DNA of 64,000 nt. Origin: an uncultured Actinomycetes bacterium (GTDB lineage: Bacteria; Actinomycetota; Thermoleophilia; Gaiellales; Gaiellaceae). The stretch is from positions 554,793 through 618,792 of the forward strand of contig CAWEYY010000002.1 in assembly GCA_963813435.1 (NCBI GenBank), in the 5' to 3' direction. This document shows positions 13,782-31,545 of this stretch, in pieces (position 1 is the stretch's first letter; each line of letters starts with the position of its first letter). The position numbers and the translations under genes are program-made. The notes under the pieces are model-generated. The model searched no databases. It saw nothing but the letters and a program-made list of their open reading frames with translations, and was not told where the DNA came from.

Positions 13782-14038
13782 GGATCCCGGCCCAGATCGT
13801 CGAGCTCGTCGACGAGAACGCGGGAATCGCGAAGGCCGAGATCTCCGGTGTCCGCCGCAACGTCTCGGTCGCGCTCTGCCCCGAGGCGCAGGTCGACGAC
13901 TGGGTGCTCGTGCACGTCGGCTTCGCCCTCTCCCGCATCGACGAGGAGCAGGCGCGCGAGACGATCGCGCTCCTCGAGCAGATGGGCGAGGCGTACGAGC
14001 AGGAGGTCCGCGAGATCCGGGAGAGCGCGACCACATGA
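13772..14038 (+). CDS. hypC: hydrogenase chaperone HypC
   Basis: 88 aa starting MCLGIPAQIV. Lies at the end of track ORF 12977-14038. Confidence 0.9.
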   Translation: MCLGIPAQIVELVDENAGIAKAEISGVRRNVSVALCPEAQVDDWVLVHVGFALSRIDEEQARETIALLEQMGEAYEQEVREIRESATT

Positions 14039-14232
14039 ATCTCGACCGCGAGCACTGCCTCACCTGCTCCGACGAGGCGGTCACAGCGACCGTGGTGGCC
14101 GTCGAGGGCGCCAATGCGACCGTGGAGGCTGACGGCCGGCGCGAGCAGGTCGGGATCGAGCTCGTCGAGCCGGTCGAGCCAGGCGACGTGCTGCTCTGCC
14201 ACGCGGGGATCGCGCTGGAGAAGGTGCCGTGA
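14035..14232 (+). CDS. HypC/HupF-like paralogue without the N-terminal Cys2
   Basis: 65 aa: MNLDREHCLTCSDEAVTATVVAVEG...VLLCHAGIALEKV. ATGA overlap with hypC and a 4-nt overlap (14229-14232) between its stop and the hypD start. Confidence 0.65.
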   Translation: MNLDREHCLTCSDEAVTATVVAVEGANATVEADGRREQVGIELVEPVEPGDVLLCHAGIALEKVP

Positions 14233-15350: not shown

Positions 15351-15447
15351 GACGACGCTTGCGGAGTCTCCTTCAGGCCGGGCAGGCTTTGCCTGCTCGG
15401 CCGTCTGAACCGACCGATCGACACGTTTGCCGTCAGGAGCTCCCGCC
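15351..15447 (+). repeat. 97-nt intercistronic structured element, copy A (hypD-hypE)
   Basis: Aligns without gaps to 59314-59410 and 63333-63429 (both minus strand). The first hairpin starts inside the TGA. Long GC hairpin at 15372-15409. ATCGACAC core (GGTCGACAC in the other copies). AGGAG Shine-Dalgarno at 15435-15439. Confidence 0.8.
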
Positions 15448-16476
15448 GTGAGAAGAAGGCCGAGGCTCACGGATGAGGTCGTCACGCTTGCGCACGGCTC
15501 CGGCGGGAAGGCGACACGCGCGCTCGTCGAGAGCCTCTTCCTCGAGGAGCTGGGCAATCCGCTGCTGGAGCCGCTCGGCGACTCGGCGCTGCTCGAGCTG
15601 AACGGCTCCCGGATCGCGTTCACGACCGACTCGTACGTCGTCAAGCCGATCGTCTTTCCCGGCGGGGACATCGGCGAGCTCGCCGTGAACGGAACCGTGA
15701 ACGACCTCGCCGTCGCCGGTGCGACGCCGGTCGCGCTCTCGGCGGGCTTCGTCGTCGAGGAGGGCTTCGAGGTCGCCGAGCTGAGGCGCCTCGTCGCCTC
15801 GATGGCGCGCGCGGCCGAAGCCGCCGGAGTGGCCGTCGCAACCGGCGACACGAAGGTGGTCGAGCGTGGCAAGGCGGACGGGCTCTACGTGAACACGGCC
15901 GGGATCGGCCTCGTGCCTTCCGGGGTGGAGCTCGGCGCCGAGCGGGTGCGGGTCGGCGACCGCGTGCTCGTCTCGGGCACCCTCGGGGACCACGGCATGG
16001 CGGTGATGATCGCCCGCGGCGAGCTCGCGCTCGAGGTCGAGCTCGAGAGCGACACCGCCCCCGTGCACGAGCTCGCCGCGTCGCTGCTCGAGCTCGGCGG
16101 GGCCGTCCGCTGGCTGCGCGACCCGACCCGCGGCGGGCTCGCGACCGCGCTCAACGAGCTGGCGCAGGACGCGGAGCTCGCGGTGGCGCTGGAGGAGGCG
16201 GCCCTTCCGCTGCGGCCGACCGTCGTCGGCGCCTGCGAGATCCTCGGGATCGACCCGCTCTACGTCGCCAACGAGGGGAAGCTCGTCGCGGTGGTCGCGC
16301 CCGAGGCCGCCGACGACGCGCTGGAGCGCCTTCGCGGACACGAGCTCGGCGCCGAGGCGGCGATCATCGGCGAGATCCGGGCCGAGCCGGAGGGGCTTGT
16401 GCTGCTCGACACGGCGTTCGGCGGCAGCCGGATCGTCGACATGCTCGTCGGCGACCCGTTGCCCCGAATCTGCTGA
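15448..16476 (+). CDS. hypE: hydrogenase maturation protein HypE
   Basis: AHGSGG N-terminal motif and C-terminal PRIC. GTG 15448 preferred, 8 nt after AGGAG. The track ORF starts at TTG 15427. Confidence 0.9.
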   Translation: MRRRPRLTDEVVTLAHGSGGKATRALVESLFLEELGNPLLEPLGDSALLELNGSRIAFTTDSYVVKPIVFPGGDIGELAVNGTVNDLAVAGATPVALSAGFVVEEGFEVAELRRLVASMARAAEAAGVAVATGDTKVVERGKADGLYVNTAGIGLVPSGVELGAERVRVGDRVLVSGTLGDHGMAVMIARGELALEVELESDTAPVHELAASLLELGGAVRWLRDPTRGGLATALNELAQDAELAVALEEAALPLRPTVVGACEILGIDPLYVANEGKLVAVVAPEAADDALERLRGHELGAEAAIIGEIRAEPEGLVLLDTAFGGSRIVDMLVGDPLPRIC

Positions 16477-16480
16477 ACGG

Positions 16481-16498
16481 CTCGGAGCGTTTCCCGAG
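16481..16498 (+). terminator. short hairpin after hypE
   Basis: CTCGG-N8-CCGAG, starting 5 nt after the hypE stop. Confidence 0.3.
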
Positions 16499-16510
16499 AT
16501 CACGTCAAGA

Positions 16511-16584
16511 GTGTCGACCGGTCAGTGCAGACGGGAGCACGGGCTGGCCCGCGCTCCCTGACAACGGCGTCGCAAGCGAGCGCC
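16511..16584 (-). repeat. structured element, copy D (3' of the cytochrome c gene, no downstream gene)
   Basis: Its sense strand aligns without gaps to positions 1-74 of copies A, B and C. It shares CCGTCTG.AC.TGACCGGTCGACAC. Both hairpins are kept through compensatory changes. Confidence 0.7.
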
Positions 16585-17331
16585 TTACTTCAGCGTCTTG
16601 AGATAGGCGACGAGCGCCTTCAGGTCCTGGTCGCTGAGGATCCCGCCCCAGTGCGGCATGCTCACGATCGGTGCCTTGCCGATCACGCTGCCGCTGCGGA
16701 TCATGTCTGTGATCTTCTTGTCGGTGTTGAACTCCGCCCGGAAGTCGGCCCCCGTGAGCGGCGGGATCGCCTTGTCCTCCGAGAGCGGGTTCGGCACTCC
16801 GCCGAGGCCGTTCGGGCCGTGGCAGTTGATGCAGCCGTCCCGCACGTAGAGCGCCGCGCCCGCGACCTCGAGCCCCTGGCCCTGCGGCACTGTCGGTGGC
16901 GATGCGTCGGGAACGCTCGGCAAGCCTGCATGGATGTAGGCGACGAGCTGGTCCACCTGCCGCTTGGAGATGACCGCCCCCCAGACGGGCATGTACGGCT
17001 TGGTCGGGTTCGCAGACTCGCCGAGACCGTGGTTGATGATCTGCTGCAGCTGCGCGGATGTAAGCGCCTTGCCCACGGTCTTGAGCCCGGGCACGTCCGG
17101 CGAGACGCCGCCTTGCCCGTTGTCGCCGTGGCACTGGGCGCAGGCGAACTGGACGAACACGTGCGCGCCCGCGGCCACCTTCGGGTCGACGGGAGCTGCC
17201 GAGGCCGTCGTTGCCGCGCCGACCGTCTTCGTCTTCTTCGTGTAGTGGCCCGCGCCCCAACCGATCAGGCCGGCCACCACCACGAGCAGGACGACGACAA
17301 TAGCGCCGACGGCGAACAACCGGTTGCTCAC
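16585..17331 (-). CDS. membrane-anchored dihaem cytochrome c
   Basis: 248 aa. N-terminal TM helix and two CxxCH motifs (CAQCH, CINCH). Confidence 0.85.
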   Translation of the reverse strand: MSNRLFAVGAIVVVLLVVVAGLIGWGAGHYTKKTKTVGAATTASAAPVDPKVAAGAHVFVQFACAQCHGDNGQGGVSPDVPGLKTVGKALTSAQLQQIINHGLGESANPTKPYMPVWGAVISKRQVDQLVAYIHAGLPSVPDASPPTVPQGQGLEVAGAALYVRDGCINCHGPNGLGGVPNPLSEDKAIPPLTGADFRAEFNTDKKITDMIRSGSVIGKAPIVSMPHWGGILSDQDLKALVAYLKTLK

Positions 17332-17420
17332 TGCGTCCTCATTTCGATTGGTTGAGAGTGGATCCTTCCAGACGGCGATCCATCAGTGTCGGCGCGGACG
17401 CGGCTGCGGCTTTCCCGCAG

Positions 17421-18139
17421 CTAGGCGCCCGCGGCCTGCGTCGCGGCCTGCGGGCCGCGGTGCTCCAGAATCACCTCGAGCAAGCGACGCGAGTGGAGCA
17501 CGTGCTCGTGGGCCAGTGCCCGGGCCCCGTCTGCGCTGCCGGCGACCAGAGCTTCGAGGATCGCGCGGTGCTGGTGCACGTTCTGCCGGTAGAGGTCGTC
17601 GATCTCCGGCCCTCCCGGGCTCCAGCGGCTCAGAAACGTCCGCCGCGCGCTCTTCGCGACCTGCTCGACGAGCGGAACGTCGGCCGCGTCGTAGATGACG
17701 TCGTGGAAGCGGTAGTTCGCGCGCACCCATTCGACCGTGACTCGGGTCCGCTCGCTCTCGCTCCGCCGGCGGTCCAACAGCTGCTCGGTCAGCTCCTCGA
17801 AGCGGGCCTCGGCCGCCCCCAGCTCGGCCAGCCTGGCCCCGGTCATGTTCGGGGTCGCGAGCCCGGTGACGAGCGCCTCGAGCTCCGCGCGCACCATGAA
17901 CGCCTGCTGGAGCTCGTCGAGTGAGATCGTGCGCACGCGCACGCCGCGGTTCGGCGTGAACGAGACGAGGCCTGTCGCGGCCAGGCGGCGGAGCGCCTCG
18001 CGAACCGGCGTGCGACTGACGCCGAAATGCTCCGAGAGCTGTTCCTGTCGCAGGACCGCGCCCGGCGGCAGCCCGCCGGAGATGATCTCGTCCTCGAGCG
18101 CGAGGGCGATCTCGTCGGCCTTGGTGCCGACCTCGGACG

Positions 18140-18152
<13 letters not shown>
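17421..18152 (-). CDS. GntR-family (FadR/FCD-type) transcriptional regulator
   Basis: Track ORF 17421-17942 is only the FCD domain. My translation shows the in-frame HTH upstream ([52 protein letters not shown]). There is no ATG, GTG or TTG there; the start is ATT 18150-18152 or CTG 18141-18143. Confidence 0.8.
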
Positions 18153-20981
<2,829 letters not shown>

Positions 20982-21331: not shown

Positions 21332-22327
21332 GTGATTCGACGGGGGCTGGTCATCGGGGTCGCGGCCGCGGCGTTGCTCGGCGTCGCCCCGGTCGCCCAG
21401 GCCGGGATCGCGGAGGTTCGGGACGGCCACGGGAACCTCGTCGGGAACGGCGGCCCGGGCACGTACGGAAGCGCCTACGACGCCGGCTGGACGCTCCGCT
21501 ACGACTACGCCAGCCGGACCACCCGAGGCGTCTCGCTGAGAGGAGTCTCGCTCGCGGGCGGCGCCGTCTACGCGGAGAGGGTCTTCGTCCCGGCTCACGG
21601 CCTGCGCGGTGCGCGCGTCCAGGGGCTCCGGGTGAACGGCCACGCCGTCGCCGCGCGGCCGAACGCGCTCGTCCCGCTCGACCCGGGGAGCTACCTCGTC
21701 GTCCTCCAGGAAGCGGTCGTTCCGGGCGAGGGGAGCGGGCTCGTCGGCCTGCGCCTGGTGGCCGGAGACGCCGCGCTCGGCCTCGATCCGGGAACCCAGG
21801 TGCTGGTCGGGCTGGCGCGCGCGGCCCAGCCGGCGACGCACCACCGGCAGGCGCGTCTCTCCTGGCTCGCGCTCGGAGTCTCGGGGCACAGCGCGGTGCC
21901 CATCCAGGACGTCGTCTGGCCCGAGCTGCTCGGCGTGCCGTCGAACGGGAGCACCGGCCTCAGAGCGGTCGCAATCGCCGAGCGCTACCTCGGCATCCCC
22001 TACCGCTGGGGCGGCGCCGCCCCGATCACCGGCTTCGACTGCTCGGGCTTGACGATGTACGTCTATGCCCAGCTCGGGATCGATCTCACGCACTACACCG
22101 GCTCCCAGTGGTACGAGGGCACGCGCGTCCCGCCCGACCAGCTCGAGCCGGGCGACCTCGTGTTCTTCCACCCGAGCCCCCGGGGCCCGCAGCACGAGGG
22201 GATGTACATCGGCGGCGGCCGCTTCATCCAGGCGCCGCACACGGGCGACGTCGTGAAGATCTCGTCGCTGAGCGAGCCGTCGTACCTGAACGGCTACGTC
22301 GGCGCCGTCAGGCCCGCGAAGCCCTAG
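21332..22327 (+). CDS. secreted NlpC/P60 (C40) cell-wall hydrolase
   Basis: 331 aa. Signal peptide (AAALLGVAPVAQA) and a C-terminal P60 domain (YRWGG...FDCSGL...H.GMYIG). Confidence 0.85.
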   Translation: MIRRGLVIGVAAAALLGVAPVAQAGIAEVRDGHGNLVGNGGPGTYGSAYDAGWTLRYDYASRTTRGVSLRGVSLAGGAVYAERVFVPAHGLRGARVQGLRVNGHAVAARPNALVPLDPGSYLVVLQEAVVPGEGSGLVGLRLVAGDAALGLDPGTQVLVGLARAAQPATHHRQARLSWLALGVSGHSAVPIQDVVWPELLGVPSNGSTGLRAVAIAERYLGIPYRWGGAAPITGFDCSGLTMYVYAQLGIDLTHYTGSQWYEGTRVPPDQLEPGDLVFFHPSPRGPQHEGMYIGGGRFIQAPHTGDVVKISSLSEPSYLNGYVGAVRPAKP

Positions 22328-25300
22328 CCGGTCGGAGCCCGCGCAGCTCGTCCCGCTCACGCGGGCGCGGCGCGGGGGCCTTGCCGACGAAGGCGAAGCC
22401 GCTGAACATCATCGCGATCCCGAGCAACTGCCCCGCGTAGACGAAGGAGTACGAGCCCGTGCGCGAGAGACCGGTGGCCAGCGCCACGACGATCGCGCCC
22501 GCGGCTATCCAGACGTTCGAGCGCACGCGCCGGCGGCGCACGATCGCGTACAGCGAGCCGCCGACGAGAAACACCGTCCCGAAGGTGTTCAGCGCGACCG
22601 CCCAGAGGAAGGCGTCGCCGCCGAGCGCGGCGTTCGGCGGCGGTCGCCCGTGCGGCGTGAGCGCGAGCGCGGTCGTGCTCACCGGGGCGAGCGCGACCGT
22701 GACGATCGCCGCGGCCGTCGCCACGGCGAGACCACCGAGGAGCAGGTCCCGTCCCCGCCTCGGGAGGAGCAGCCAGGCTGAGCCGGCTCCGAGGAACGCA
22801 ACGGTCAGCACGCCGCCCGCGAGGTAGTAGACCCGGAAGAGGCCGGGGGTCCAGCCGGCCCGCTGTGCAACCGCCTCGCAGGCCGCGGCGACCCCGAAGA
22901 GGAGGAAGCCGGTCGCCCAGAGCACCTTCTCGCCGGAGCGCCGCCGCCTGAGCGAGCGCAGGAGGAGAACGGCGAAGGCGATGGCGACGAGCGTCGCGCA
23001 GAGCGGCAGCAGGGCGTCGAGCACCGCGGGCGCCGTCGCGCCCGGTCGCGAGCTGATCGCGGTTACCGGAGAGCCGGCCGGGACGACCTCGAGGTAGGTG
23101 AAGTCCCGTCCTCCGAACATGCCCTCGTGGGTGGCGACGAACGAGTAGCGGCCCGGCGCCAGCGCGCGCGCGGGAGCCAGGGCCAGCTGCCGTGGCGTCG
23201 ACGTGCGCAGGAGGAGCGGAACCCGGCGCTGGCGGCCGAGGTCGTAGAGCTGGTACGCGCTCACCGAGTCGACGGCGGCCGCGCGGACGAGGATCGAGCC
23301 GATCTGCGACGCGTGCATGCGGAGCGAGTCCTGCGGGAACGACGTCTGCGGATCGCTCCAGCTGAAGAGCTTGACCGGTCCGCGCGCCGTGCTCACGAAC
23401 TGGCCGGTCACCTCGTTGGTCAGCCTCGGCTCGTAGGCGTAGCGGACGGTGCTGCCGCCCACCCCTGCGACCGCCGGCACGAACGGGATCGCCACCAGCA
23501 GCAGGGCCAGCACGCCGAAGCCGATCGAGACGCGGGTCCGGTAGCTCTCGACACGCCGCGTGCGGCCGCGCGGCGGACGCCCTTCGAGCCTCGCCCGCCG
23601 TCGCGCCTGCGCCCAGTAGAGCGCAGCCGAGGAGACCACGGCCATCACCGGGAGCCAGACGAGCTCGACTCCCCACCCCACGCCGCGCAGCGGGCCACGG
23701 CCGTACGGACTGAAGGCGACCGGGATGATCGCCCAGGTGATCGCCGGGCCGGCCATCAGCAGAATCGAGGCCATGAGCGGGAAGCCCGCGAACAGCCAGC
23801 CGACTCCCGGGAACCCCATCAGCCCGAGCGGGAGCTCGTAGCCGGCGAGAGCCGCGGGACTGCGCCGGCGTACGCGGCGCGGGATCGTCCCGCTGTAGAT
23901 GCGTGGCACCGCCGCGATCGCCTGTCGTCCCTCCACGCGCTGACGCTCCGTCATCCGCCAGGCGGCACTCGCGAAGGAGGCGAACCCGATCAGGACCGCG
24001 AGCGCCGCGGGTACGAGGACGAGCGATTCCCAGGGCTCGAGCGCCGAGACCGCGGCCGCGAACGAGCGCCCCGCCGCGACCCGGTGGGCCTCGACCGCCG
24101 AGAAGGAGACGCCGGCCACGTAGTACGCGGCAACCCCGAGAGGCACGAAGACCAGCACGAGCCGGGCTCGCCGCGCCGGCCAGCGAGCTCCGAGCAGCTG
24201 GAGCGAGCCGAGCGCCAGGCCGGCCAGCAGCATCATCAGCCCGCCGAGCATGTTCAGCTGGGCGTGCAGGTTGACGATCACGTCCCCGGCCTCCCCGCCG
24301 CGGTCGAGCGCCTCGTTCACGAACGGCAGCGCCTGCACCGGTCCCTGCAGCGTCCCGATCGCGAGCGCGGCGCAGCCGACGAGCACGAACGGCCGCACCA
24401 GGCTCCGCGAGCGAAGGACGGAGCGGACGCTCGTCGCGAGCAGCAGCCAGAAAGCCGCGAACATCGCGATTCCCGCGCCCATGATCAGGTACGGGTGGAG
24501 CGGAGTCGCCTCCTCGGCCGCCTCGGGGGTCAGGCCGTGGTGGACCACCAGCCCGCCCTCGTGGAAACCGAGGTAGAGCGTCGAGAAGTAGAAGGCCAGC
24601 GACCCACCGAGGAGCGCGTAGAAGCACGTGTCGGCAAGGCGGCGAGAGGGCGCGGTTCCACCGAGCGCCTGTACGAGCGCGAACAGGGAGCCCGCGACGA
24701 GCATCGTCAGCCCGGTCACGAGATTGATGTGCGCATGACTGATCGGGTCGATCCACTCGCCCGCGTGGCCCGCTTTGTAGAGCCAGTCCGCGTTGGCGGG
24801 CTGCACCTGGATCACGCCCTGCACGGTCCCCACGGTCAGCGCCGCAGCACCCGTGGCGAAGTACTTCCAGAGGTGCCACTGCGGCTTCGGCACGCGGACG
24901 AGCCGTGACTGGAAGATCGTGAGGGCGACGTTGCTGGCGAAGCACCAGTAGCCGAGGCCCATCACGCCCGCGCCCATCCCGGTGGGCACCTTGTACCAGC
25001 GTCCCAGGTGCTCCTTCGCGGCCGGATACGTCGACCCGTGCTCGATCAGATGGCCCATCGCGATCCCGTTCCCGATCAGCGAGACGTAGAAGACGAGCAG
25101 GCCGACGACCGTGAACCAGAAGGCGCACTGCGCGAGCCCCTCGCTCGTCAGCGGCCGCCCCACGATCCGCGGGAGGACGAGCCAGCAGAGCCCGGTCGCG
25201 AGCAGCGTGCCCCCGCCGACGATCATCACGTGCGTGTTCGAGAGGTCGCGGACCAGGTGGCCCGCGTAGCCGGTGCGGGCGAGGTATTCGGCGAGCCAGG

Positions 25301-25529
25301 GCACGTTCTTGACGACCATGTGCAGGCTCCCGAGAACGAGGAAGAGCGCGCCGGCGAGGAAGTACTTCGCCGTCTTCGGGTCGTGCGCATGGAGCTCTTC
25401 GTCCGGGTAGGGCGTCTCGCGTACCGGCGGCGCGCGGCCCGGCACGAACCTGCAGATCGCCGCGACGACGACCGCGAAGAAGGCGACGTACGTCAGGAAC
25501 TGGAGCGAGGAGAGGTGCTGGACCCACAT
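22308..25529 (-). CDS. divergent haem-copper-oxidase (CcoN/NorB-like) domain fused to a ~600-aa multi-TM C-terminal region
   Basis: 1073 aa. The N-terminal ~470 aa aligns by eye to the CcoN at 28134-29660 (NTHVMIV...LPRIVGRP; SHAHINLV; VVHHG; NLHAQLNMLGG). The rest is about 12 TM helices plus a ~150-aa soluble insert. Confidence 0.7.
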   Translation of the reverse strand: MWVQHLSSLQFLTYVAFFAVVVAAICRFVPGRAPPVRETPYPDEELHAHDPKTAKYFLAGALFLVLGSLHMVVKNVPWLAEYLARTGYAGHLVRDLSNTHVMIVGGGTLLATGLCWLVLPRIVGRPLTSEGLAQCAFWFTVVGLLVFYVSLIGNGIAMGHLIEHGSTYPAAKEHLGRWYKVPTGMGAGVMGLGYWCFASNVALTIFQSRLVRVPKPQWHLWKYFATGAAALTVGTVQGVIQVQPANADWLYKAGHAGEWIDPISHAHINLVTGLTMLVAGSLFALVQALGGTAPSRRLADTCFYALLGGSLAFYFSTLYLGFHEGGLVVHHGLTPEAAEEATPLHPYLIMGAGIAMFAAFWLLLATSVRSVLRSRSLVRPFVLVGCAALAIGTLQGPVQALPFVNEALDRGGEAGDVIVNLHAQLNMLGGLMMLLAGLALGSLQLLGARWPARRARLVLVFVPLGVAAYYVAGVSFSAVEAHRVAAGRSFAAAVSALEPWESLVLVPAALAVLIGFASFASAAWRMTERQRVEGRQAIAAVPRIYSGTIPRRVRRRSPAALAGYELPLGLMGFPGVGWLFAGFPLMASILLMAGPAITWAIIPVAFSPYGRGPLRGVGWGVELVWLPVMAVVSSAALYWAQARRRARLEGRPPRGRTRRVESYRTRVSIGFGVLALLLVAIPFVPAVAGVGGSTVRYAYEPRLTNEVTGQFVSTARGPVKLFSWSDPQTSFPQDSLRMHASQIGSILVRAAAVDSVSAYQLYDLGRQRRVPLLLRTSTPRQLALAPARALAPGRYSFVATHEGMFGGRDFTYLEVVPAGSPVTAISSRPGATAPAVLDALLPLCATLVAIAFAVLLLRSLRRRRSGEKVLWATGFLLFGVAAACEAVAQRAGWTPGLFRVYYLAGGVLTVAFLGAGSAWLLLPRRGRDLLLGGLAVATAAAIVTVALAPVSTTALALTPHGRPPPNAALGGDAFLWAVALNTFGTVFLVGGSLYAIVRRRRVRSNVWIAAGAIVVALATGLSRTGSYSFVYAGQLLGIAMMFSGFAFVGKAPAPRPRERDELRGLRPARASRA

Positions 25530-25543
25530 CCCGCTAGCCCCGG

Positions 25544-25735
25544 TTACCGGAGGCCGGGCTCGAGGAAGTAGATCGTCAGGGTCACGGCGAAGTAGACGAC
25601 CGCGATCACAGCCAGGATGATCCAGGAGCGGACGACGGCCTGGCGCGAGTGGCGGTCCTCCTCCCCGCCGATGTCGCGGTAGCCGGCGAGCGGACGGGCG
25701 GGGCGGGGCTCTTGCGGAACGGGAGCCTCGCTCAT
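25544..25735 (-). CDS. small single-TM protein
   Basis: 63 aa with a C-terminal TM (SWIILAVIAVVYFAVTLTIYF). Tightly packed within the operon. Confidence 0.45.
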   Translation of the reverse strand: MSEAPVPQEPRPARPLAGYRDIGGEEDRHSRQAVVRSWIILAVIAVVYFAVTLTIYFLEPGLR

Positions 25736-26068
25736 CTAGAACACCTTCTCCAGGACGCGTGTCGGCTCGGCGCGGATGTCGGCCACGTCACCGAGCATCC
25801 GCTCGAACGTGTAACCCCGCTCGAGGAATGCCTCGAGCTGCTCGGGCGTGTCCCAGGTCGTGTAGCAGTGGACGCGGACGCCGCCGTCCTCTATGGCGAC
25901 GAACGCCTCGAGCTTCTGGCAGCCGGGGTACTCCTGGACGTGCCCCTTGAGCGCCTGCATCGAGGCGTAGACGCTCGGCCACGCCTCCATCGGCACCTGA
26001 GCGACGGTCGCCGACGACCATGCCACGTAGGGCAGCGCCGATGGGACAGGGACCTCTGCGGCGGCCAT
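25736..26068 (-). CDS. ABM/Dabb-like (antibiotic-biosynthesis-monooxygenase fold) protein
   Basis: 110 aa from MAAAEVPV. Pattern LEAFVAIEDGGVRVHCYTTWDTPEQLEAFL. ATGA overlap with the upstream gene. Confidence 0.55.
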   Translation of the reverse strand: MAAAEVPVPSALPYVAWSSATVAQVPMEAWPSVYASMQALKGHVQEYPGCQKLEAFVAIEDGGVRVHCYTTWDTPEQLEAFLERGYTFERMLGDVADIRAEPTRVLEKVF

Positions 26069-26415
26069 CAGAACTTCTGTCCCCAGACGATGTGGCCGAC
26101 GATCAGCACCGCCGCCCAGGCTGTCAGGACCCCGGTCAGAACCAGGAAGAAGACCGTCGCAGGCCCGGCCGTCTCCGTCGTGTATCCGCCGAAGCTGTCC
26201 GCCGGATAGATCCGTTCCCGCTGGCGGGTCGATCGGTACTGGTGGATCCACCAGAGGGTGGCGATCACGAGCACGATCACGAAGCCCCAGAGCCAGGCGA
26301 GGTCGATCCAGTGGACGTGCCAGGTGTCCGGCCGGTACATCGTCTCCTGGTGGCCCTGGAGGTACTTGTAGTACTGCTGCGCCTTCTCGGGCGACTCGCC
26401 GCTAGGCATCCCCAT
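26068..26415 (-). CDS. two-TM membrane protein
   Basis: About 115 aa from MGMPSGESPEK, with two hydrophobic helices. The track ORF extends to 26562. Confidence 0.45.
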   Translation of the reverse strand: MGMPSGESPEKAQQYYKYLQGHQETMYRPDTWHVHWIDLAWLWGFVIVLVIATLWWIHQYRSTRQRERIYPADSFGGYTTETAGPATVFFLVLTGVLTAWAAVLIVGHIVWGQKF

Positions 26416-26713
26416 CGGCCCACTCCTCCTCGTCGAGCGCCCACTCGGGCGTGTAGTAGTCCTCCTCCTCCACCAGGAGCGGGATTCCTCCCATCCGGTC
26501 GAGCTCCTGGAAATGGCCCGCCTTCCAGGCCGCCAGGAACGCGACGAGCGCGAGCCCGGCAAAGATGAAGAACGTGTCCATCATCCAGTCGGCCATCACC
26601 CAGCGCGACTGCTTGCTCTCCGGCGCTTCGTGCGCGAGCGCCAGGGCGGGCCAGCCGAGGGCCATGACCGCCGCCAGGACGAGCGTGGCTGCGAGAAGCC
26701 TCAGGCGGCTCAC
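26402..26713 (-). CDS. small exported or membrane protein with an acidic C-terminus
   Basis: 103 aa. GTG in a GTGA overlap with the upstream gene. Signal-like N-terminus, one TM, then an EEEDYY...DEEEWADGDA tail. Confidence 0.45.
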   Translation of the reverse strand: MSRLRLLAATLVLAAVMALGWPALALAHEAPESKQSRWVMADWMMDTFFIFAGLALVAFLAAWKAGHFQELDRMGGIPLLVEEEDYYTPEWALDEEEWADGDA

Positions 26714-28134
26714 TGCTGCCCCGGCACGGTCGGCGGGACGTCCTTCTGGGCGGCGGGCGGAAGCTTCTCTCCCCTGGCGCGCGCGTCGGCCCAGGCGCGG
26801 TTGAGCATGTCCTCGTAGATCGACCTGATCCCCGCGGCCGCCGTCCCGAGCGAGAGCGGTGTGTGGGCCTTGTCGTTCAGCACCAGGTGGTCGCCCGGCG
26901 AGAGCCCTGGGAACACGGCCTCCGCCTCTTTGATGAACGGGTCGTTCGCCTGCTTCTTGTCGAACTGGACGTTGTTGGCGAGCTTCTGGCGCGTGTTCGT
27001 CCACGCCAGCAGCTCAGGCGAGGGTTGCCAGACGATGTAGTCCTTCGGCTCGGGCACCCGGTTGGCAGCGAGGGTCCCATTCGGGATCGTCTTGACGAAC
27101 AACACGACGCGCCAGATGTCGTTGACGGAGAGTCGGTCGCCGAAGTTCTCCATCGCCGTGCCAGACCAGCCGCGGAGGATCCGGTAGTAGAAGTCGCCAG
27201 GCCCGGTGTCACCGCCGCAGCAGGCGTCGTCCTTGTCGGTGAAGTCGGCCGGCGTCGGCGAGAGGAACGGTGCGGCCGGGCCCTTCCCGTCGCCGTTGAG
27301 ACCGTGGCAGCCGATGCAACGGTCGAGGAAGACCTCCTTGCCGCGGAAGAGGTTTTGCTCCGTCACAGGCAGCGGGTTTCCCGCGAGCCAGTAGCCTCGC
27401 TCGATCTGGGAGAGGTTGGGCGCCTCCTCGAGCTGGTCCTTCGGCGGATCCAGGCTCGCATCGTCCGGCTCCAGCGGTTTCTTGTGCGCCGCATTGAACC
27501 CGCGGTACGGCGGCGGGAAGCCCTGGTTGACGAGCACGACGTGCTTGGCGTAGAGCTGGCCGGCGTAGCGGAGCAGCCCGGACTTGCCGCTGCGCTGCTC
27601 GACGTACGAGATCACCTGGTTCACCTGCTGGTTCGAGAAGAGCGACTTCATGTCCGGCATGAGCGAGCGCGGGTCGACGAAGCGCGGATCCCAGAAGTGC
27701 GCGGACTGCCAGTCGTCCGGATGCCAGCCCGACTCCTGCGAGAGGTCGGGCCCGGTTCGCTCGGTTCCGAGGATGTTCGGCGACTGGTCGCTCCCGTAGA
27801 AGTCGCCAGGCTGGGAGACCTTCGGGTAGAGGAAGTAGAGCGCCTCGCGCACGTCCTGCGGCCGCGAGTAGCCGGAGTGGCAGACGTAGCAGCCGTTCTG
27901 GGCGAACAGGTTCCGTCCCTTGAGCGCCACGCTCGAGAGCGGAGCCCAGTCCGCCGAGGCCGGCGGATCGAACGTGTGGATCGGAAGCCAGACGACGATT
28001 CCAACGACGCAGAAGAACGCGAGCAGCCCGCCCACGCCCGCCATCAGCGGCGTGATCAGCATGCGCTCCTTGGGATGCCGCGACCACCCGCGGGGCAGCG
28101 GCTGCGGCGGCTCGCCCCTGCGCTCGTCGGCCAT
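26710..28134 (-). CDS. ccoO: cbb3-type oxidase subunit CcoO fused to a second monohaem cytochrome c domain
   Basis: 474 aa. FixO-like N-terminal half (CYVCHS, GTERTGPDL, SLMPDM) and a C-terminal CIGCH domain. Confidence 0.8.
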   Translation of the reverse strand: MADERRGEPPQPLPRGWSRHPKERMLITPLMAGVGGLLAFFCVVGIVVWLPIHTFDPPASADWAPLSSVALKGRNLFAQNGCYVCHSGYSRPQDVREALYFLYPKVSQPGDFYGSDQSPNILGTERTGPDLSQESGWHPDDWQSAHFWDPRFVDPRSLMPDMKSLFSNQQVNQVISYVEQRSGKSGLLRYAGQLYAKHVVLVNQGFPPPYRGFNAAHKKPLEPDDASLDPPKDQLEEAPNLSQIERGYWLAGNPLPVTEQNLFRGKEVFLDRCIGCHGLNGDGKGPAAPFLSPTPADFTDKDDACCGGDTGPGDFYYRILRGWSGTAMENFGDRLSVNDIWRVVLFVKTIPNGTLAANRVPEPKDYIVWQPSPELLAWTNTRQKLANNVQFDKKQANDPFIKEAEAVFPGLSPGDHLVLNDKAHTPLSLGTAAAGIRSIYEDMLNRAWADARARGEKLPPAAQKDVPPTVPGQQ

Positions 28135-29660
28135 CAGCCGGCGACGGGTGGAGGCGCCATCATCTCGGCCACCCTCAGGGTCTCCTGCCTCCGGCGCTCA
28201 CCCGTGTTGCTGTAGATCGTCATCCCGATGTTGACGATCTGGACGATCCCGGAGACGACGATCATCGCGCCGAAGATCCCGCGCGCGATGTAGTACGCGT
28301 GCAGCTGCGGCAGGACGTTCACCTCGGGGATCCCGTCCTGCCAGGCGAAGCCCTGCTGGAAGCCGGCCAACGTGAGCACGCTGAAGAAGCCGGTGAAGCC
28401 GACCGTGACGAGCCAGTACTGCCACTCGGAAAGGCTCCGGCTGAATAAGGGTCGCTGGTAGATCTGGGCGACGATGTAGTCGATCACGCCCATGCCGAGG
28501 ATCGTGAAGGCGCCGAGCAGGGCCAGATGCGCGTGGGCGACGACGAAGTTCGTGAAGTGCGTCAGCTTGTTGAACGGCTGGATCGCCTCGAACGCGCCCT
28601 GGATGTTGACGAGGAAGTAGAAGAAGAAGGCGGTCATCGTGAAGCGCAGGGGGAGGTTCGTGAAGAACCGATCCCAGTTGCCCTTCATCGTCCCGAGGAT
28701 GTTGATCGTGAACGCGAAGACCGGGACCAGCAGCATCCAGGACGAGACCTGGGCGATCGTCTTCAGCCACGCCGGCGTGGGTGACTGGAGAATGTGGTGG
28801 TCGCCCACGCCCGTGTAGAAGAACGCCATCCCCCAGAAGGAGACGAGCGAGAGCGTGTAGCTGTACAGGGGGGTGTTCGTCACCCGCGGGACGATGTAGT
28901 ACGTCAGCGCGAGCAGCATCGGTGTCAGCCACAGCCCGAACAGGTTGTGGGCGTACCACCAGTTGAGGATCGCGTCGGACAGGCTCGAGTTGAGGGCGCC
29001 GGAGGTCGCGCCCCAGACGTTCCCCGGGTGCCAGATCACGTTACCGATCGCGTAGTCGACCGCGAGCCAGAGCGGGCTGGCGATGAAGAACCAGACAGAG
29101 ACGTAGATCGGCCTGATCGTCCGGATCGAGACCGTCGCCAGGATGTTGACGATGTTGCCGCACCAGATGACGAGCAGAGCGATGTCGATCGGCCAGATGA
29201 ACTCGGCGTACTCGCGGCCCTGACTGTGGCCTGTGAGCAGGCCGATGATCCCGAGCAGGTACATCAGGTTCCAGGCCCAGGCGCAGATGACGCCGAGCCG
29301 CTCGCTCCACATCCCGCGCGTGCCCACGAGGCGCGGGAGCATGTAGAAGAGCGCGCCGAAGTACATCATCGTGAGCCAGGCGAGGATCACGCCGTTCACG
29401 TGCGACGGGCGGATCCGGCTGAACTGGAGCCACGAGATCCCGCCGAAGGCCTCGGGAGTGACGAACTCGGTCGCGAGAACGAGTCCGAAGAGGTCGACGA
29501 CGGTCAGCCAGATGATCGACGAGAGGATCCAGTGCCTCGCCGCCCGGTCCGGGAAGGGCGCGGGACCCGATGCTCGCTCCGTCAGGGGCGCAGGCGCATC
29601 CGGCGTAATCGCGCCCGGCTCCAGCGGACGATCCCGCTCGAGGGTCCCCTCGCCGGCCAT
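28134..29660 (-). CDS. ccoN: cbb3-type cytochrome c oxidase subunit I
   Basis: 508 aa, 12+ TM. Ligand motifs SHVNG, WWYAHN, GDHH and VAHAHLALLG. Confidence 0.9.
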   Translation of the reverse strand: MAGEGTLERDRPLEPGAITPDAPAPLTERASGPAPFPDRAARHWILSSIIWLTVVDLFGLVLATEFVTPEAFGGISWLQFSRIRPSHVNGVILAWLTMMYFGALFYMLPRLVGTRGMWSERLGVICAWAWNLMYLLGIIGLLTGHSQGREYAEFIWPIDIALLVIWCGNIVNILATVSIRTIRPIYVSVWFFIASPLWLAVDYAIGNVIWHPGNVWGATSGALNSSLSDAILNWWYAHNLFGLWLTPMLLALTYYIVPRVTNTPLYSYTLSLVSFWGMAFFYTGVGDHHILQSPTPAWLKTIAQVSSWMLLVPVFAFTINILGTMKGNWDRFFTNLPLRFTMTAFFFYFLVNIQGAFEAIQPFNKLTHFTNFVVAHAHLALLGAFTILGMGVIDYIVAQIYQRPLFSRSLSEWQYWLVTVGFTGFFSVLTLAGFQQGFAWQDGIPEVNVLPQLHAYYIARGIFGAMIVVSGIVQIVNIGMTIYSNTGERRRQETLRVAEMMAPPPVAG

Positions 29661-29775: not shown

Positions 29776-30444
29776 ATGCGCATCCTGGTCATCGAGGACG
29801 AGCCGCGGATCCGGGCCTTCCTTTCGCGCGGCCTCGAGGCGGAGGGCTTCAGCGTCGACGGCGCAGGCGATGGTGCGGCGGGGGTCGAGCAGGCGGCACG
29901 GCGGCGCTACGACCTCGTGATCCTCGACCTGCTCCTGCCGAAGCTCGACGGTCTCTCGGTGTTGCGGGAGCTGCAGCGCGAGCGACCCGAGCTCCCCGTC
30001 GTGATCGTCTCGGCCCGCTCGGACCTCGACACCAAGCTCCGCGGGTTCGGGCTCGGCGCCTGCGACTACCTCTCGAAGCCGTTCTCGTTCGACGAGCTGC
30101 TCGCGCGAGTGCGGGCACAGCTGCGACGTGGGCGGCCGGGCGAGAGCGGGACGGTCGTGCGCGCGGGGACGCTGTCGCTCGACGTCGCGCGCCGCCAGGC
30201 TCGCCTGGGCGACGTGGTCGCCGAGCTCTCAGACCGGGAGTTCCGCCTCCTCCACCACCTGGTCCTGCACGAAGGGGAGGTCGTGAGCCGCGAGCGGCTG
30301 CTCGCCGACGTCTGGGGCTACCACTTCGACCCGCGCTCGAACGTCGTCGACGTCTGCATCCGACGGCTGCGGCAGAAGCTAGGCGCGCAGGCGCCGATCG
30401 AGACCGTGCGGCATGGGGGCTATCGACTGACGGCGGCGGCCTAG
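29776..30444 (+). CDS. OmpR-family response regulator
   Basis: 222 aa. MRILVIEDE receiver and a winged-helix C-terminus (LSDREFRLLHHL...TVRHGGYRL). Confidence 0.9.
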   Translation: MRILVIEDEPRIRAFLSRGLEAEGFSVDGAGDGAAGVEQAARRRYDLVILDLLLPKLDGLSVLRELQRERPELPVVIVSARSDLDTKLRGFGLGACDYLSKPFSFDELLARVRAQLRRGRPGESGTVVRAGTLSLDVARRQARLGDVVAELSDREFRLLHHLVLHEGEVVSRERLLADVWGYHFDPRSNVVDVCIRRLRQKLGAQAPIETVRHGGYRLTAAA

Positions 30445-30456
30445 GACGATGCGGCG

Positions 30457-31545
30457 ATGAAGGCGGGCGACTCTCTCCGGCGTCCCGAATGGGCTCGGGG
30501 GCTCTCGTGGGTGGAAATCGCCTGGCTCCTCTTCACCGGAGCGAACCTGACCGCGATGCTGCTCCTCCCGAGCTGGGAGACGATCCCGTTCCACTTCATC
30601 TGGATCAGCCTCACGATCGTCTACGGCTTCCGCGTGTGGGACTCGACGGCGACGGGCGTCGTGCTCGCTCTCGTCGCGGTTACGACGGGGGGCCTGATCC
30701 TCAGCGACGCGTACACGGGCGAACAGCTCTGGGGCGAGCTGTTCGAGGTCCCCTTGATGTCGGCGATGTTCCTGGCAATGGTCTGGCACGCGCGCCGCCG
30801 CCAGGACGCGCTGCGCACGATCGAGCGAGAGGCCGACGAGCGCGCCGCGCTTCTGCGCCAGCAGAAGCGTTTCTTGCACGACGTCTCGCACGAGCTGCGG
30901 ACACCGGTCACGATCGCCCGCGGGCACCTCGAGGTGCTCCGGCGGCTGAACGGAAAGCCGGCCCAGGAGATCGAGGTCGCGCTCGACGAGCTCGGCCGGA
31001 TCGAGCACATCCTCGAGCGGCTGCTGCTGCTCGGGAGGTCGAAGCAGCCCGACTTCGTCGTGCTCTCCGACGTGGACGTGGGACCCTTTCTCGAGGATGT
31101 GTTCATGCGTTGGTCCGAGGTGGTTCCGCGCGGATGGACGCTCGGCCCTGTCGTGCAGGGCACACTCCGCGCCGATCCCGAGGCTCTCCGGATCGCTCTT
31201 GACGCACTGCTCGAGAACGCGGTCAAGCACACCGAGCCGGCCGACGCGATCAGGCTCGGCGCCCGCGCGGCCGGCGGACAGCTCGCGATCGAGGTCGCGG
31301 ACGAGGGCCCCGGGGTACCGCACGACCAGCTCGGGCGGATCTTCGACCGCTTCGCCCGGGCCGACTCCGCACGCTCACGGGACCAGGGAGGTGCCGGGCT
31401 CGGGCTCGCGATCGTCGATGCGATCACGAAGGCCCACGACGGGACCTGCTCCGCGGTGAACTCGGCCTCCGGCGCGATCTTCACACTGCGCTTCCCGGCC
31501 TTCACGCCAGCCCGTGGGCAGGTGCCCGCGCTCTCTGCTTCCTAA
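30457..31545 (+). CDS. sensor histidine kinase
   Basis: 362 aa. N-terminal TM helices, H-box VSHELRTPVT, and DEGPGV / GAGLGLAIV boxes. Confidence 0.85.
   Translation: MKAGDSLRRPEWARGLSWVEIAWLLFTGANLTAMLLLPSWETIPFHFIWISLTIVYGFRVWDSTATGVVLALVAVTTGGLILSDAYTGEQLWGELFEVPLMSAMFLAMVWHARRRQDALRTIEREADERAALLRQQKRFLHDVSHELRTPVTIARGHLEVLRRLNGKPAQEIEVALDELGRIEHILERLLLLGRSKQPDFVVLSDVDVGPFLEDVFMRWSEVVPRGWTLGPVVQGTLRADPEALRIALDALLENAVKHTEPADAIRLGARAAGGQLAIEVADEGPGVPHDQLGRIFDRFARADSARSRDQGGAGLGLAIVDAITKAHDGTCSAVNSASGAIFTLRFPAFTPARGQVPALSAS

What the first reader, a model, noticed from the sequence alone, without database searches (positions are those of the whole stretch)
22308..25529. 1073-aa fusion of a divergent haem-copper-oxidase domain (one invariant haem His replaced by Gln) with a large uncharacterised multi-TM module
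This is the last gene of the cbb3 operon. Its N-terminal ~470 aa can be aligned by eye to the CcoN encoded 3 kb upstream.

| Position | This protein | CcoN |
|---|---|---|
| Helix 2 | SNTHVMIVGGG...LVLPRIVGRPLTSEGLA | PSHVNGVILAW...YMLPRLVGTRGMWSERLG |
| First CuB His | ISHAHINLVTG | WYAHNLFGLW |
| His-His pair | LVVHHGL | GVGDHHIL |
| Helix 10 | VNLHAQLNMLGG | VVAHAHLALLGA |

- In helix 10 the first His (high-spin haem ligand) is kept. The second His, an axial ligand of the low-spin haem that is invariant in oxidases and NO reductases as far as I know, is Gln.
- The spacing between the CuB His and the His-His pair is about 13 residues longer than in CcoN.
- After residue ~470 come about 5 more TM helices.
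- A ~150-aa probably periplasmic beta-rich insert follows (STVRYAYEPRLTNEVTGQFVSTARGPVKLFSWSDPQ...GRYSFVATHEGMFGGRDFTYLEVV).
- Seven further TM helices follow, with no motif I recognise.
- A catalytic-subunit paralogue with altered haem ligation, fused to an unknown membrane module and co-transcribed with a complete cbb3 oxidase, does not match any characterised enzyme I know.
Basis: partly seen in the sequence, partly recalled or inferred. Interest (0 to 1): 0.7.

Follow-up and report, generated by a model that had tools for sequence, protein, structure and literature searches.

The report
Copper-less oxidase look-alike in cbb3 operon
The last gene of this cbb3 oxidase operon encodes a large membrane protein that copies the fold of the oxidase's catalytic subunit but lacks its copper site. 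It probably still binds two haems, and it accompanies this type of oxidase in several bacterial phyla with no known function.

Summary
The 1073-aa ORF is real (minus strand, 22308-25529). It is full length in hundreds of relatives and closes a tightly coupled seven-gene operon: ccoN, ccoO/P, four small genes, then this gene.

Residues ~50-527 adopt the haem-copper-oxidase (HCO) subunit I fold (AlphaFold pLDDT 86.7; Foldseek top hits CcoN and NorB, TM 0.70-0.75).

- **His-His pair:** conserved in only 86 and 47 of 343 relatives, so it is not a CuB site.
- **Invariant His:** exactly four (H100, H265, H267, H422; 343/343).
- **Internal repeat:** the domain is three 4-helix units clearly similar to each other (hhalign E 1e-14 to 3e-26). 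CcoN's own units are barely similar (E ~1e-3).
- **Register:** anchored to the repeat, the His pattern equals the canonical HCO pattern rotated by one unit. H265-x-H267 matches the helix-X H-x-H, H422 the helix-II His, H100 the helix-VI His, and Q424 a non-ligand position.

I infer two haem sites and no CuB.

The link to cbb3 clusters holds in Thermoleophilia, Chloroflexota and Alphaproteobacteria. One relative carries a Sco1/SenC domain in place of the beta-sandwich plus 7-TM tail.

My best reading is a dedicated, non-catalytic, haem-binding partner of this cbb3 variant, either a subunit or an assembly platform. No description of it was found.

The parts
22308..25529 (-). Complete gene: 1073-aa HCO-like membrane protein, last gene of the operon
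   Evidence: ORF and translation. GC3 0.92. 100% identical database entry and full-length relatives.
25446..25508 (-). Extra N-terminal TM helix (residues 8-28, 'TM0') before the 12-TM core. It is absent in the Chloroflexia clade.
   Evidence: AlphaFold helix 8-28. Alignment A1.
24894..25397 (-). Repeat unit 1 (residues 45-212, helices I'-IV'). Contains invariant H100 (codon 25230-25232) at repeat position b, N98 at position a, and Y148.
   Evidence: hhalign U1-U2 E 2e-24 and U1-U3 E 1e-14. BLASTP U1-U2 32.5% identity, E 3e-15. Pfam COX1 profile 319-414, E 1.8e-6. Conservation.
24414..24893 (-). Repeat unit 2 (residues 213-372, helices V'-VIII'). Contains the invariant H265-A-H267 (codons 24735-24737 and 24729-24731). 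The non-conserved HH330/331 is also here.
   Evidence: hhalign U2-U3 E 3e-26. H265/H267 align to CcoN H376/H378. Pfam COX1 profile 310-429. Conservation 343/343.
23940..24413 (-). Repeat unit 3 (residues 373-530, helices IX'-XII'). Contains invariant H422 (24264-24266) at position a and near-invariant Q424 (24258-24260) at position b.
   Evidence: Pfam COX1 profile 3-148 (helices I-IV), E 6.6e-4.
23460..23939 (-). Family-specific extension (residues 531-690). It has an amphipathic helix, a probable re-entrant hairpin with E565 and the G-F-P-G-x-G-W motif, then three TM helices. The first part, up to ~650, is present in all short forms.
   Evidence: AlphaFold. Invariant columns E565, G575, G577, W578. 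No similarity to CcoN units or to the repeat units.
23040..23459 (-). Periplasmic beta-sandwich domain (residues ~691-830) with invariant motif GMFxGR(D/E)(F/Y)xY. It has no invariant His, Cys or Met.
   Evidence: AlphaFold strands. Alignment A4. Periplasmic side inferred from the Sco1/SenC domain at the same position in P0151.
22380..23039 (-). C-terminal 7-TM bundle (residues ~831-1050), family unassigned
   Evidence: AlphaFold. Foldseek gave only weak GPCR-like 7-TM hits (best E 2.4e-4, TM 0.2-0.5). Pfam DUF6962 matched in 1 of 31 members only.
28134..29660 (-). ccoN: genuine C-family catalytic subunit with all six His ligands and the cross-link Tyr
   Evidence: Pfam COX1 6.6e-77. Alignment to 3MK7_A, 2.2e-63, covering H60, H207, Y251, H257/258 and H345/347 equivalents.
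26710..28134 (-). ccoO-ccoP fusion (FixO plus a cytochrome c domain)
   Evidence: Pfam and NCBIfam.
25544..26713 (-). Four small conserved genes: sA 26402-26713 (CcoS/FixS-like motif), sB 26068-26415, sC 25736-26068 (weak ABM-like), sD 25544-25735. They overlap or abut their neighbours.
   Evidence: Conserved in order in ~65 Thermoleophilia loci and in L082-L084.

Best explanation
The gene encodes a non-catalytic paralogue of the haem-copper-oxidase catalytic subunit. It is a dedicated partner of the cbb3-type oxidase encoded just upstream.

**Shown**
- Residues ~50-527 form the 12-helix subunit-I fold.
- That fold is built from three 4-helix units that are still clearly similar to one another.
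- Only four His are invariant.
- The gene is always the last member of a ccoN - ccoO/P - small-genes cluster, across phyla.

**Inferred from the known pore geometry of HCOs**
- Helix VI' (H265-x-H267) plays the part of canonical helix X and feeds two neighbouring pores.
- H267 plus H422 would bind a low-spin b haem.
- H265 would bind a second haem, with H100 and Y148 on its distal side.
- No CuB can form, because the helix-VII-type His-His is absent.
- The third pore (N98, Q424, H70, K74) stays haem-free and polar.

**Inferred with less support**
- The protein sits next to CcoN/CcoOP as an extra, redox-active membrane subunit.
- Its C-terminus carries exchangeable periplasmic modules to the oxidase: nothing, a beta-sandwich plus 7 TM, or Sco1/SenC.

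**My probabilities**
- HCO-like partner of cbb3 without CuB: ~0.85.
- Two haems bound as described: ~0.6.
- Permanent subunit rather than assembly-only factor: ~0.4 against ~0.3.
For: **Fold**
- AlphaFold pLDDT 86.7, pTM 0.83.
- Foldseek top hits are CcoN 8smr_E, 3mk7_A, 9g6b_A and NorB 3o0r_B, with TMt 0.70-0.75.
- COX1 scores 51.7 bits for residues 1-480.

**Conserved ligands**
- H100, H265, H267 and H422 are present in 343/343 relatives. Q424 is present in 341/343 and Y148 in 342/343.
- HH330/331 are present in 86 and 47 of 343.

**Internal repeat**
- hhalign gives E 2e-24, 3e-26 and 1e-14 between units. Reversed-sequence controls give E 0.02-0.13.
- Single-sequence BLASTP gives E 3e-15, 1e-8 and 2e-6.
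- The repeat alignment puts N98|H265|H422 in one column and H100|H267|Q424 two residues later.
- A Pro anchor 22 residues downstream gives the same register in CcoN: helix II His = a, helix VI His = b, helix X = a and b.

**Shifted register**
- BLASTP aligns target 114-349 to CcoN 252-458.
- hhalign aligns 108-350 to 246-459 at Prob 95.2%, against 8.5% for the collinear alignment.
- The same non-collinear hits recur in five distant relatives.
- The Pfam COX1 model places unit 2 on profile 310-429 and unit 3 on profile 3-148.

**Operon linkage**
- The cluster is conserved in every Thermoleophilia locus with enough upstream DNA.
- It is also conserved in L082, L083 (Aurantimonas MAG), L084 (Promineifilaceae), and L085/L086 (Chloroflexia).
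- Stops and starts overlap or abut throughout the operon.

**Module exchange**
- P0151 carries PF02630 (SCO1-SenC) after the core.
Against: - No cofactor was observed. Haem binding rests on homology logic. I could not read model coordinates, so His-His distances and pore occupancy were not measured.
- Unit 1 matches CcoN unit C slightly better than unit B. 'Rotation' may therefore reflect differential loss of His from an H-x-H x 3 ancestor rather than a circular permutation.
- Nothing shows physical association with CcoN.
- The operon also holds a CcoS-like gene, and CcoS is an assembly factor in proteobacteria. Operon membership therefore does not separate subunit from assembly factor.
- The Sco fusion was seen in one cluster only.
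Confidence: 0.5

Rival explanations
1. It is an assembly platform rather than a subunit. The HCO-like protein would act transiently in cofactor insertion (Cu and/or haem b/b3) into CcoN. This would replace part of the proteobacterial CcoGHIS/SenC machinery, much as NifEN serves nitrogenase. Its haems could supply electrons for Cu(II) or thiol reduction on the periplasmic side.
For: - One relative is a Rosetta-stone fusion to Sco1/SenC, a copper chaperone used for oxidase assembly.
- That locus also has Caa3_CtaG nearby, and DUF4396 occurs nearby in L082 and L083.
- A CcoS/FixS-like small gene (sA) sits in the same operon.
- No ccoG, ccoH or ccoI homologue was seen in the operon.
Against: - The Sco fusion is rare: 1 of the ~240 relatives listed.
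- Most members carry either nothing or a beta-sandwich/7-TM module with no invariant His, Cys or Met.
- Haems buried in a 12-TM bundle are unlikely to be handed over.
- Tight translational coupling with the structural genes fits a stoichiometric subunit at least as well.
Confidence: 0.28
2. The protein would be a second catalytic subunit with altered haem ligation (His to Gln on the low-spin haem), reducing O2, NO or a related small molecule at a modified binuclear centre.
For: - The subunit-I fold is present.
- Q424 is nearly invariant.
- H100 and Y148 align with the C-family CuB His and cross-link Tyr in the shifted alignment. A haem-His-Tyr pocket could therefore exist.
Against: - No conserved His-His pair or other three-ligand metal site exists.
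- The collinear alignment that yields 'His to Gln' is the worst supported and needs a 2-residue gap at H100.
- In that register both low-spin ligands are missing, and two invariant His are unexplained.
- None of the HCO families listed by Murali et al. 2024 (PMC11214002) lacks the three-His metal site altogether.
Confidence: 0.08
3. It is a cofactor-free structural relic, or a channel or sensor. The HCO-like domain would bind no haem and serve as a proton or ion pore, a membrane anchor, or a 7-TM receptor-like sensor.
For: - The C-terminal beta-sandwich plus 7 TM resembles receptor architecture (weak Foldseek GPCR hits).
- A polar third pore has conserved Q, N, H and K residues.
Against: - Four His are conserved in 343/343 sequences at exactly the haem-ligand positions of the fold.
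- No output domain is present.
- The short forms lack the 7-TM module altogether.
Confidence: 0.06

Closest known systems
CcoN, catalytic subunit of C-family (cbb3) haem-copper oxidases (e.g. P. stutzeri 3MK7 chain A)
   Same: - The 12-TM subunit-I fold is shared (Foldseek TMt 0.70-0.73).
- An H-x-H helix is flanked by two partner His.
- A Tyr sits on the third helix of the neighbouring unit.
- Both are encoded in a cbb3 operon.
   Different: - It has no His-His CuB ligands.
- The ligand pattern sits one 4-helix unit earlier in the chain.
- Its three units are mutually similar (E down to 3e-26), whereas CcoN's are not (E ~1e-3).
- It has an extra N-terminal TM helix and a 130-550-aa C-terminal extension.
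NorB of cNOR (3O0R chain B)
   Same: It gives the best TM-score of all PDB hits (0.75). It is related to the C-family.
   Different: NorB has three His plus a Glu for FeB. Here only one His remains on that side, and no conserved Glu takes part.
HCO-homology (HCOH) proteins such as NnrS (Pei, Li, Kinch & Grishin 2014, Protein Sci 23:1220; recalled from my own knowledge, since the paper was not readable here; cited in PMC4602095)
   Same: - These are non-catalytic relatives of subunit I built from three 4-TMH evolutionary units.
- The units are most similar to TMH 9-12.
- They are presumed haem binders.
   Different: - Most three-unit HCOH families were reported with two conserved His and one haem. 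This family has four invariant His.
- There is no Pfam NnrS match at E <= 10.
- This family has strict cbb3-operon linkage and its own C-terminal modules.
- Whether it was in that survey could not be checked.
Sco1/SenC and CcoGHIS cbb3 assembly factors
   Same: - The operon context is shared.
- One family member is fused to a Sco1/SenC domain.
- A CcoS-like gene lies next door.
   Different: There is no sequence or fold similarity between the window protein and CcoG, CcoH, CcoI or Sco.

Membership tests
Haem-copper oxidase superfamily, subunit I fold | 12-TM helix bundle with three-fold pseudosymmetry, detectable by profile or structure comparison | tested here: met
   COX1 scores 51.7 bits (E 8.4e-14) for residues 1-480. 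Foldseek gives 48 PDB hits at E <= 1e-3, and all of those listed are subunit I of oxidases or NORs.
Catalytic HCO (A, B, C oxidases; cNOR, qNOR and newer NOR families) | Six metal-ligand His at collinear positions: helix II, helix VI, helix VII His-His, helix X H-x-H | tested here: not met
   The collinear positions are N98 (II.a) and Q424 (X.b). HH330/331 is conserved in only 86 and 47 of 343 relatives and is misplaced.
Catalytic HCO | Three-His (plus Glu in NORs) CuB/FeB site next to the high-spin haem | tested here: not met
   Only one invariant His (H100) lies on the distal side. The helix III' positions equivalent to CcoN H288/H289 are Ile/Gly.
C-family oxidase | Cross-linked Tyr on helix VII | tested here: inconclusive
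   Y148 aligns with CcoN Y282 in the shifted alignment. However, the same F/Y-Y motif recurs in all three units (Y314, Y470), so it may be a structural repeat feature. The cross-link is not testable by sequence.
Catalytic HCO | O2 or NO reductase activity | not testable with these tools
   This requires purified protein.
HCOH / NnrS-type non-catalytic HCO homologues | Three evolutionary units, each most like TMH 9-12 of HCOs | tested here: met
   Each unit's best CcoN unit is C. Pfam COX1 places units 1 and 2 on profile 310-429.
HCOH / NnrS-type non-catalytic HCO homologues | Match to the NnrS model (PF05940), or two conserved His with a single haem | tested here: not met
   There is no NnrS hit at E <= 10. 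Four His are invariant.
cbb3 biogenesis factors (CcoG, CcoH, CcoI, CcoS, SenC) | Sequence membership in the respective Pfam or NCBIfam models | tested here: not met
   The target gave no such hits. Only the neighbouring sA gene has a weak FixS match (E 0.0036).

The most novel reading that the evidence does not exclude
This family would be a surviving near-symmetric form of the haem-copper-oxidase scaffold: three still-recognisable copies of an H-x-H-bearing 4-helix unit that hold two b haems (three in some members) and no copper. It would work as a previously unknown redox subunit of a distinct, widely spread class of cbb3 oxidases. That would give an experimentally accessible model for how the haem-haem-Cu architecture arose from a triplicated haem-binding unit.
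Probability: 0.15. Interest if true: 0.85.

Novelty: new variant of a known kind. Interest (0 to 1): 0.62.

Why it matters
**Annotation.** Relatives occur in at least 576 GTDB species-representative loci and 1223 50%-identity clusters (fragments included). They are labelled 'hypothetical' or wrongly named 'cbb3-type cytochrome c oxidase subunit I'. Counting them as oxidases inflates inferred respiratory capacity in soil Thermoleophilia and Chloroflexota.

**Bioenergetics.** A conserved seven-gene cbb3 module with a copper-less, probably di-haem, subunit-I paralogue implies an unknown component in either the structure or the biogenesis of these oxidases. Cultured carriers such as Roseibium aggregatum make this testable.

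**Evolution.** The internal three-fold repeat is far better preserved than in CcoN. The ligand pattern is rotated by one unit. This shows directly that the three units of the fold are interchangeable hosts for the metal sites.

Tried and rejected
- **Assembly artefact or frameshift:** rejected. Full-length relatives are abundant.
- **Collinear alignment to CcoN:** rejected as the best register.
- **HH330/331 as CuB ligands:** rejected.
- **C-terminal module as a CopC/CopD-like or other copper module:** no support. It has no invariant His, Cys or Met, no Pfam family beyond one weak DUF6962 hit in 1 of 31 members, and only weak GPCR-like Foldseek hits.
- **Extension 531-690 or the 7-TM module as a further HCO unit:** rejected (hhalign E 0.1-0.6).
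- **Direct PDB sequence search with the whole protein:** no hits.
- **Exact-sequence contig lookup of P0001:** nothing on record.
- **Promoter and terminator scans:** uninformative in this 70% GC DNA.
- **Genome-contig scan:** it returned only close Thermoleophilia relatives. Distant contexts had to come from the look-up of encoding contigs instead.
- **Ten literature searches:** no description of this family was found. Pei et al. 2014 could not be opened.
- **Reading model coordinates to measure His-His distances:** not possible with the tools.

Full report
**1. What is there**

The ORF lies on the minus strand at 22308-25529 and encodes 1073 aa without interruption. Its third-position GC is 0.92, like the surrounding genes.

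Upstream on the same strand are:
- ccoN at 28134-29660 (Pfam COX1 6.6e-77);
- a ccoO-ccoP fusion at 26710-28134 (FixO plus cytochrome c);
- four small genes: sA 26402-26713, sB 26068-26415, sC 25736-26068 and sD 25544-25735.

Stops and starts overlap or abut all along this stretch, and only 14 nt separate sD from the target. The seven genes therefore look translationally coupled.

The next gene downstream is a convergent NlpC/P60 gene (21332-22327, + strand).

The window's CcoN aligns over its whole length with P. stutzeri CcoN (3MK7_A, 2.2e-63). It has all six metal-ligand His and the cross-link Tyr, so the operon encodes a genuine C-family oxidase.

**2. The fusion is real and widespread**

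- A word-indexed search found 686 relatives. Almost all of the 120 best are ~1040-1095 aa at 70-100% identity, and come mostly from Gaiellaceae and other Actinomycetota MAGs; the few shorter ones are mostly marked partial.
- An exhaustive search of 50%-identity representatives found 1223 hits at E <= 1e-3, many of them fragments.

Three architectures exist:
- a short form of ~620-730 aa covering residues 1-650 of the query;
- the long form of ~1050-1150 aa;
- one 878-aa protein (P0151) in which a Sco1/SenC domain (PF02630) replaces the beta-sandwich and 7-TM tail.

**3. Fold**

Residues 1-480 alone pass the Pfam COX1 threshold (51.7 bits).

AlphaFold on a 53-sequence alignment gave pLDDT 86.7 and pTM 0.83 for residues 1-690. 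Foldseek against the PDB returned only subunit I of oxidases and NO reductases among its listed hits. The best were CcoN (8smr_E, 3mk7_A, 9g6b_A; TMt 0.70-0.73) and NorB (3o0r_B; 0.75).

The core is preceded by one extra TM helix (residues 8-28). It is followed by:
- an amphipathic helix;
- a probable re-entrant hairpin carrying the conserved E565 and G-F-P-G-x-G-W motif;
- three more TM helices.

The C-terminal 413 aa were modelled at pLDDT 84.2. They form one TM helix, a beta-sandwich and a 7-TM bundle. This part has no convincing structural or Pfam relative and no invariant His, Cys or Met.

**4. The ligand question**

Across 343 relatives from all clades, exactly four His are invariant: H100, H265, H267 and H422. 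Other conservation figures:
- Q424 is present in 341/343.
- H160 is present in 23 of 343.

The CuB-type His-His is therefore absent.

The 12-TM core consists of three 4-helix units: 45-212, 213-372 and 373-530. They are plainly similar to each other:
- hhalign gives E 2e-24, 3e-26 and 1e-14 over ~145 columns.
- Reversed-sequence controls give E 0.02-0.13.
- Plain BLASTP of the window protein's own units gives E 3e-15, 1e-8 and 2e-6.
- By the same test, the three units of the co-encoded CcoN are barely similar (E ~1e-3).

The repeat alignment puts N98, H265 and H422 in one column ('a'). It puts H100, H267 and Q424 two residues later ('b').

A conserved Pro 22 residues after position a gives the same frame in CcoN. 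There the helix II His is a, the helix VI His (H238) is b, and helix X carries His at both a and b (H376, H378).

So the patterns compare as follows:

| Helix | CcoN (a, b) | Target helix | Target (a, b) |
|---|---|---|---|
| II | H, - | II' | -, H |
| VI | -, H | VI' | H, H |
| X | H, H | X' | H, - |

The target pattern is the canonical one moved by one unit.

In the established structures (my knowledge of Iwata 1995 and Tsukihara 1996), each pore receives position a of its own arc's last helix and position b of the preceding arc's last helix. Applying that rule gives three predictions:
- H267 and H422 share one pore, as the low-spin haem ligands do.
- H265 and H100 share the next pore, as the high-spin haem His and the helix-VI CuB His do.
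- N98 and Q424 line the third pore, which is haem-free in all HCOs.

Under this reading Q424 is not a replaced haem ligand. It corresponds to the Asn of CcoN's helix II 'SHVNG'.

**5. Independent support for the shifted register**

- BLASTP aligns target 114-349 with CcoN 252-458, placing SH265AH267 on AH376AH378.
- Profile-profile hhalign ranks 108-350 to 246-459 first (Prob 95.2%, E 2.6e-8) and 96-212 to 374-489 second (92.4%).
- The collinear 92-533 to 79-492 alignment ranks third (Prob 8.5%, E 0.004) and needs a 2-residue gap right after H100.
- The same non-collinear hits recur when CcoN is compared with five distant relatives.
- The general Pfam COX1 model places unit 2 on profile positions 310-429 (helices IX-XII). 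It places unit 3 on positions 3-148 (helices I-IV).

Unit 1 matches CcoN unit C slightly better than unit B (scores 64 against 55). I therefore cannot say whether the family arose by circular permutation, by re-triplication of a unit-C-like module, or by retaining an ancestral H-x-H x 3 design with differential loss. Some members do keep H-x-H in unit 1 (43/343), and one keeps it in unit 3. The physical prediction is the same in all three cases.

**6. Genomic association**

In every Thermoleophilia locus with enough upstream DNA (~65), the order ccoN, ccoO/P, sA, sB, sC, sD, target is kept. The same seven-gene cluster occurs with:
- the Sco-fused form (L082);
- an Aurantimonas coralicida MAG (L083, short form);
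- a Promineifilaceae (Chloroflexota) MAG (L084, long form).

The most distant clade is Chloroflexia at 28-33% identity, which PGAP names 'cbb3-type cytochrome c oxidase subunit I'. It also sits at the end of COX1 - FixO/cytochrome c - small-ORF clusters. In L086 that cluster lies directly after cytochrome b, Rieske and cytochrome c genes. The association with C-family oxidases is thus a property of the whole family.

**7. How it most likely works**

*Shown:*
- It has the HCO subunit-I fold.
- It has an internal triplication.
- It has four invariant His and no conserved CuB His-His.
- It is strictly linked to cbb3 operons.
- Its periplasmic add-ons are exchangeable.

*Inferred:*
- Two b-type haems are held as in the haem b / haem b3 pair, on either side of helix VI'.
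- No copper is bound, so the protein does not act as an oxidase or NO reductase.

*Function.* I favour a permanently associated, redox-active accessory subunit of this cbb3 variant (about 0.4). The arguments are tight translational coupling with the structural genes, a rate of sequence change similar to CcoO/P, and absolute conservation of the haem ligands.

The main rival is an assembly platform for Cu or haem insertion (about 0.3). It is suggested by the Sco1/SenC fusion, the CcoS-like sA gene in the operon, and Caa3_CtaG and DUF4396 neighbours in distant loci. A second catalytic subunit, or a cofactor-free channel or sensor, seems unlikely.

**8. Relation to what is known**

The known HCO families listed by Murali et al. 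2024 are A, B, C, cNOR, qNOR, eNOR, sNOR, bNOR, nNOR, gNOR, NOD and N2O-red (PMC11214002). As far as I know, all retain a metal site next to the high-spin haem. This family does not fit any of them.

Pei et al. 2014 (Protein Sci 23:1220) proposed that subunit I consists of three homologous 4-TMH units, and that non-catalytic relatives (HCOH proteins, e.g. NnrS) exist and resemble TMH 9-12. That paper could not be opened here, and I cite it from memory. It is referenced in PMC4602095.

The present family shares that logic. It differs in four ways:
- It has four invariant His rather than two.
- It gives no NnrS match.
- It has the rotated ligand pattern.
- It has obligate cbb3-operon linkage and its own C-terminal modules.

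Ten full-text searches found no description of it. I therefore rate it a new variant of a known kind.

**9. Verdict**

The gene is interesting, but for a different reason than proposed. It is not an oxidase with one haem ligand mutated. It is a copper-less, probably di-haem, internally triplicated look-alike of the catalytic subunit that always travels with a particular cbb3 oxidase.

Noticed in passing
window 26402-26713 (-): Small gene sA starts at a GTG overlapping the ccoO/P stop. It has a signal-peptide-like N-terminus, then a TM helix followed by W-K-A-G-H-F-Q-E-L-D...LLVEEED. This resembles the CcoS/FixS cbb3 maturation protein (Pfam FixS E 0.0036). It is conserved in Thermoleophilia, alphaproteobacterial and Chloroflexota clusters.
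   Followed up: partly
window 25736-26068 (-): Small gene sC (110 aa) has no TM helix and a weak match to the ABM (antibiotic biosynthesis monooxygenase / dimeric alpha-beta barrel) family (E 0.012). It is conserved in the cluster across phyla. A haem-handling role is conceivable but untested.
   Followed up: no
window 29776-31545 (+): An OmpR-type response regulator (29776-30444) and a histidine kinase (30457-31545) are transcribed divergently from ccoN. The same pair flanks the cluster in L001 and in the Chloroflexota locus L084, so it may regulate the operon.
   Followed up: partly
L082 8001-10637 (P0151): A family member carries a Sco1/SenC domain (CPDICP motif, PF02630) in place of the beta-sandwich plus 7-TM tail. 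Its unit 3 has H-M-H instead of H-A-Q. Caa3_CtaG and DUF4396 genes lie nearby, and DUF4396 is also next to the cluster in L083.
   Followed up: partly
family alignment, column of N98: 43 of 343 relatives, mostly Chloroflexia, have His at position a of unit 1 (H-T-H). The normally haem-free pore would then have His plus Gln. These members might bind a third haem.
   Followed up: no
L085, L086 and proteins P0380-P0444: NCBI PGAP names the Chloroflexia members 'cbb3-type cytochrome c oxidase subunit I' although they lack the CuB His-His. This is a likely systematic misannotation that could inflate oxidase counts.
   Followed up: partly
window 26710-28134 (-): CcoO and a cytochrome c (CcoP-like) domain are fused in one 474-aa polypeptide. 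This fusion is kept in all related clusters examined.
   Followed up: no
window 11628-20981: The neighbourhood holds hydrogenase maturation genes (HypF 11628-13781, HypD 14229-15350, HypE-like 15427-16476). It also holds a di-haem cytochrome c (16585-17331, -), an FCD-type regulator, isocitrate lyase (18140-19396, -) and malate synthase (19389-20981, -).
   Followed up: no
window 31610-33643 (+): A 677-aa ORF has only a PilX_N-like N-terminal match (E 3.9e-5). Its first-codon-position GC is unusually low (0.50, against ~0.7 in neighbours). Function is unknown.
   Followed up: no
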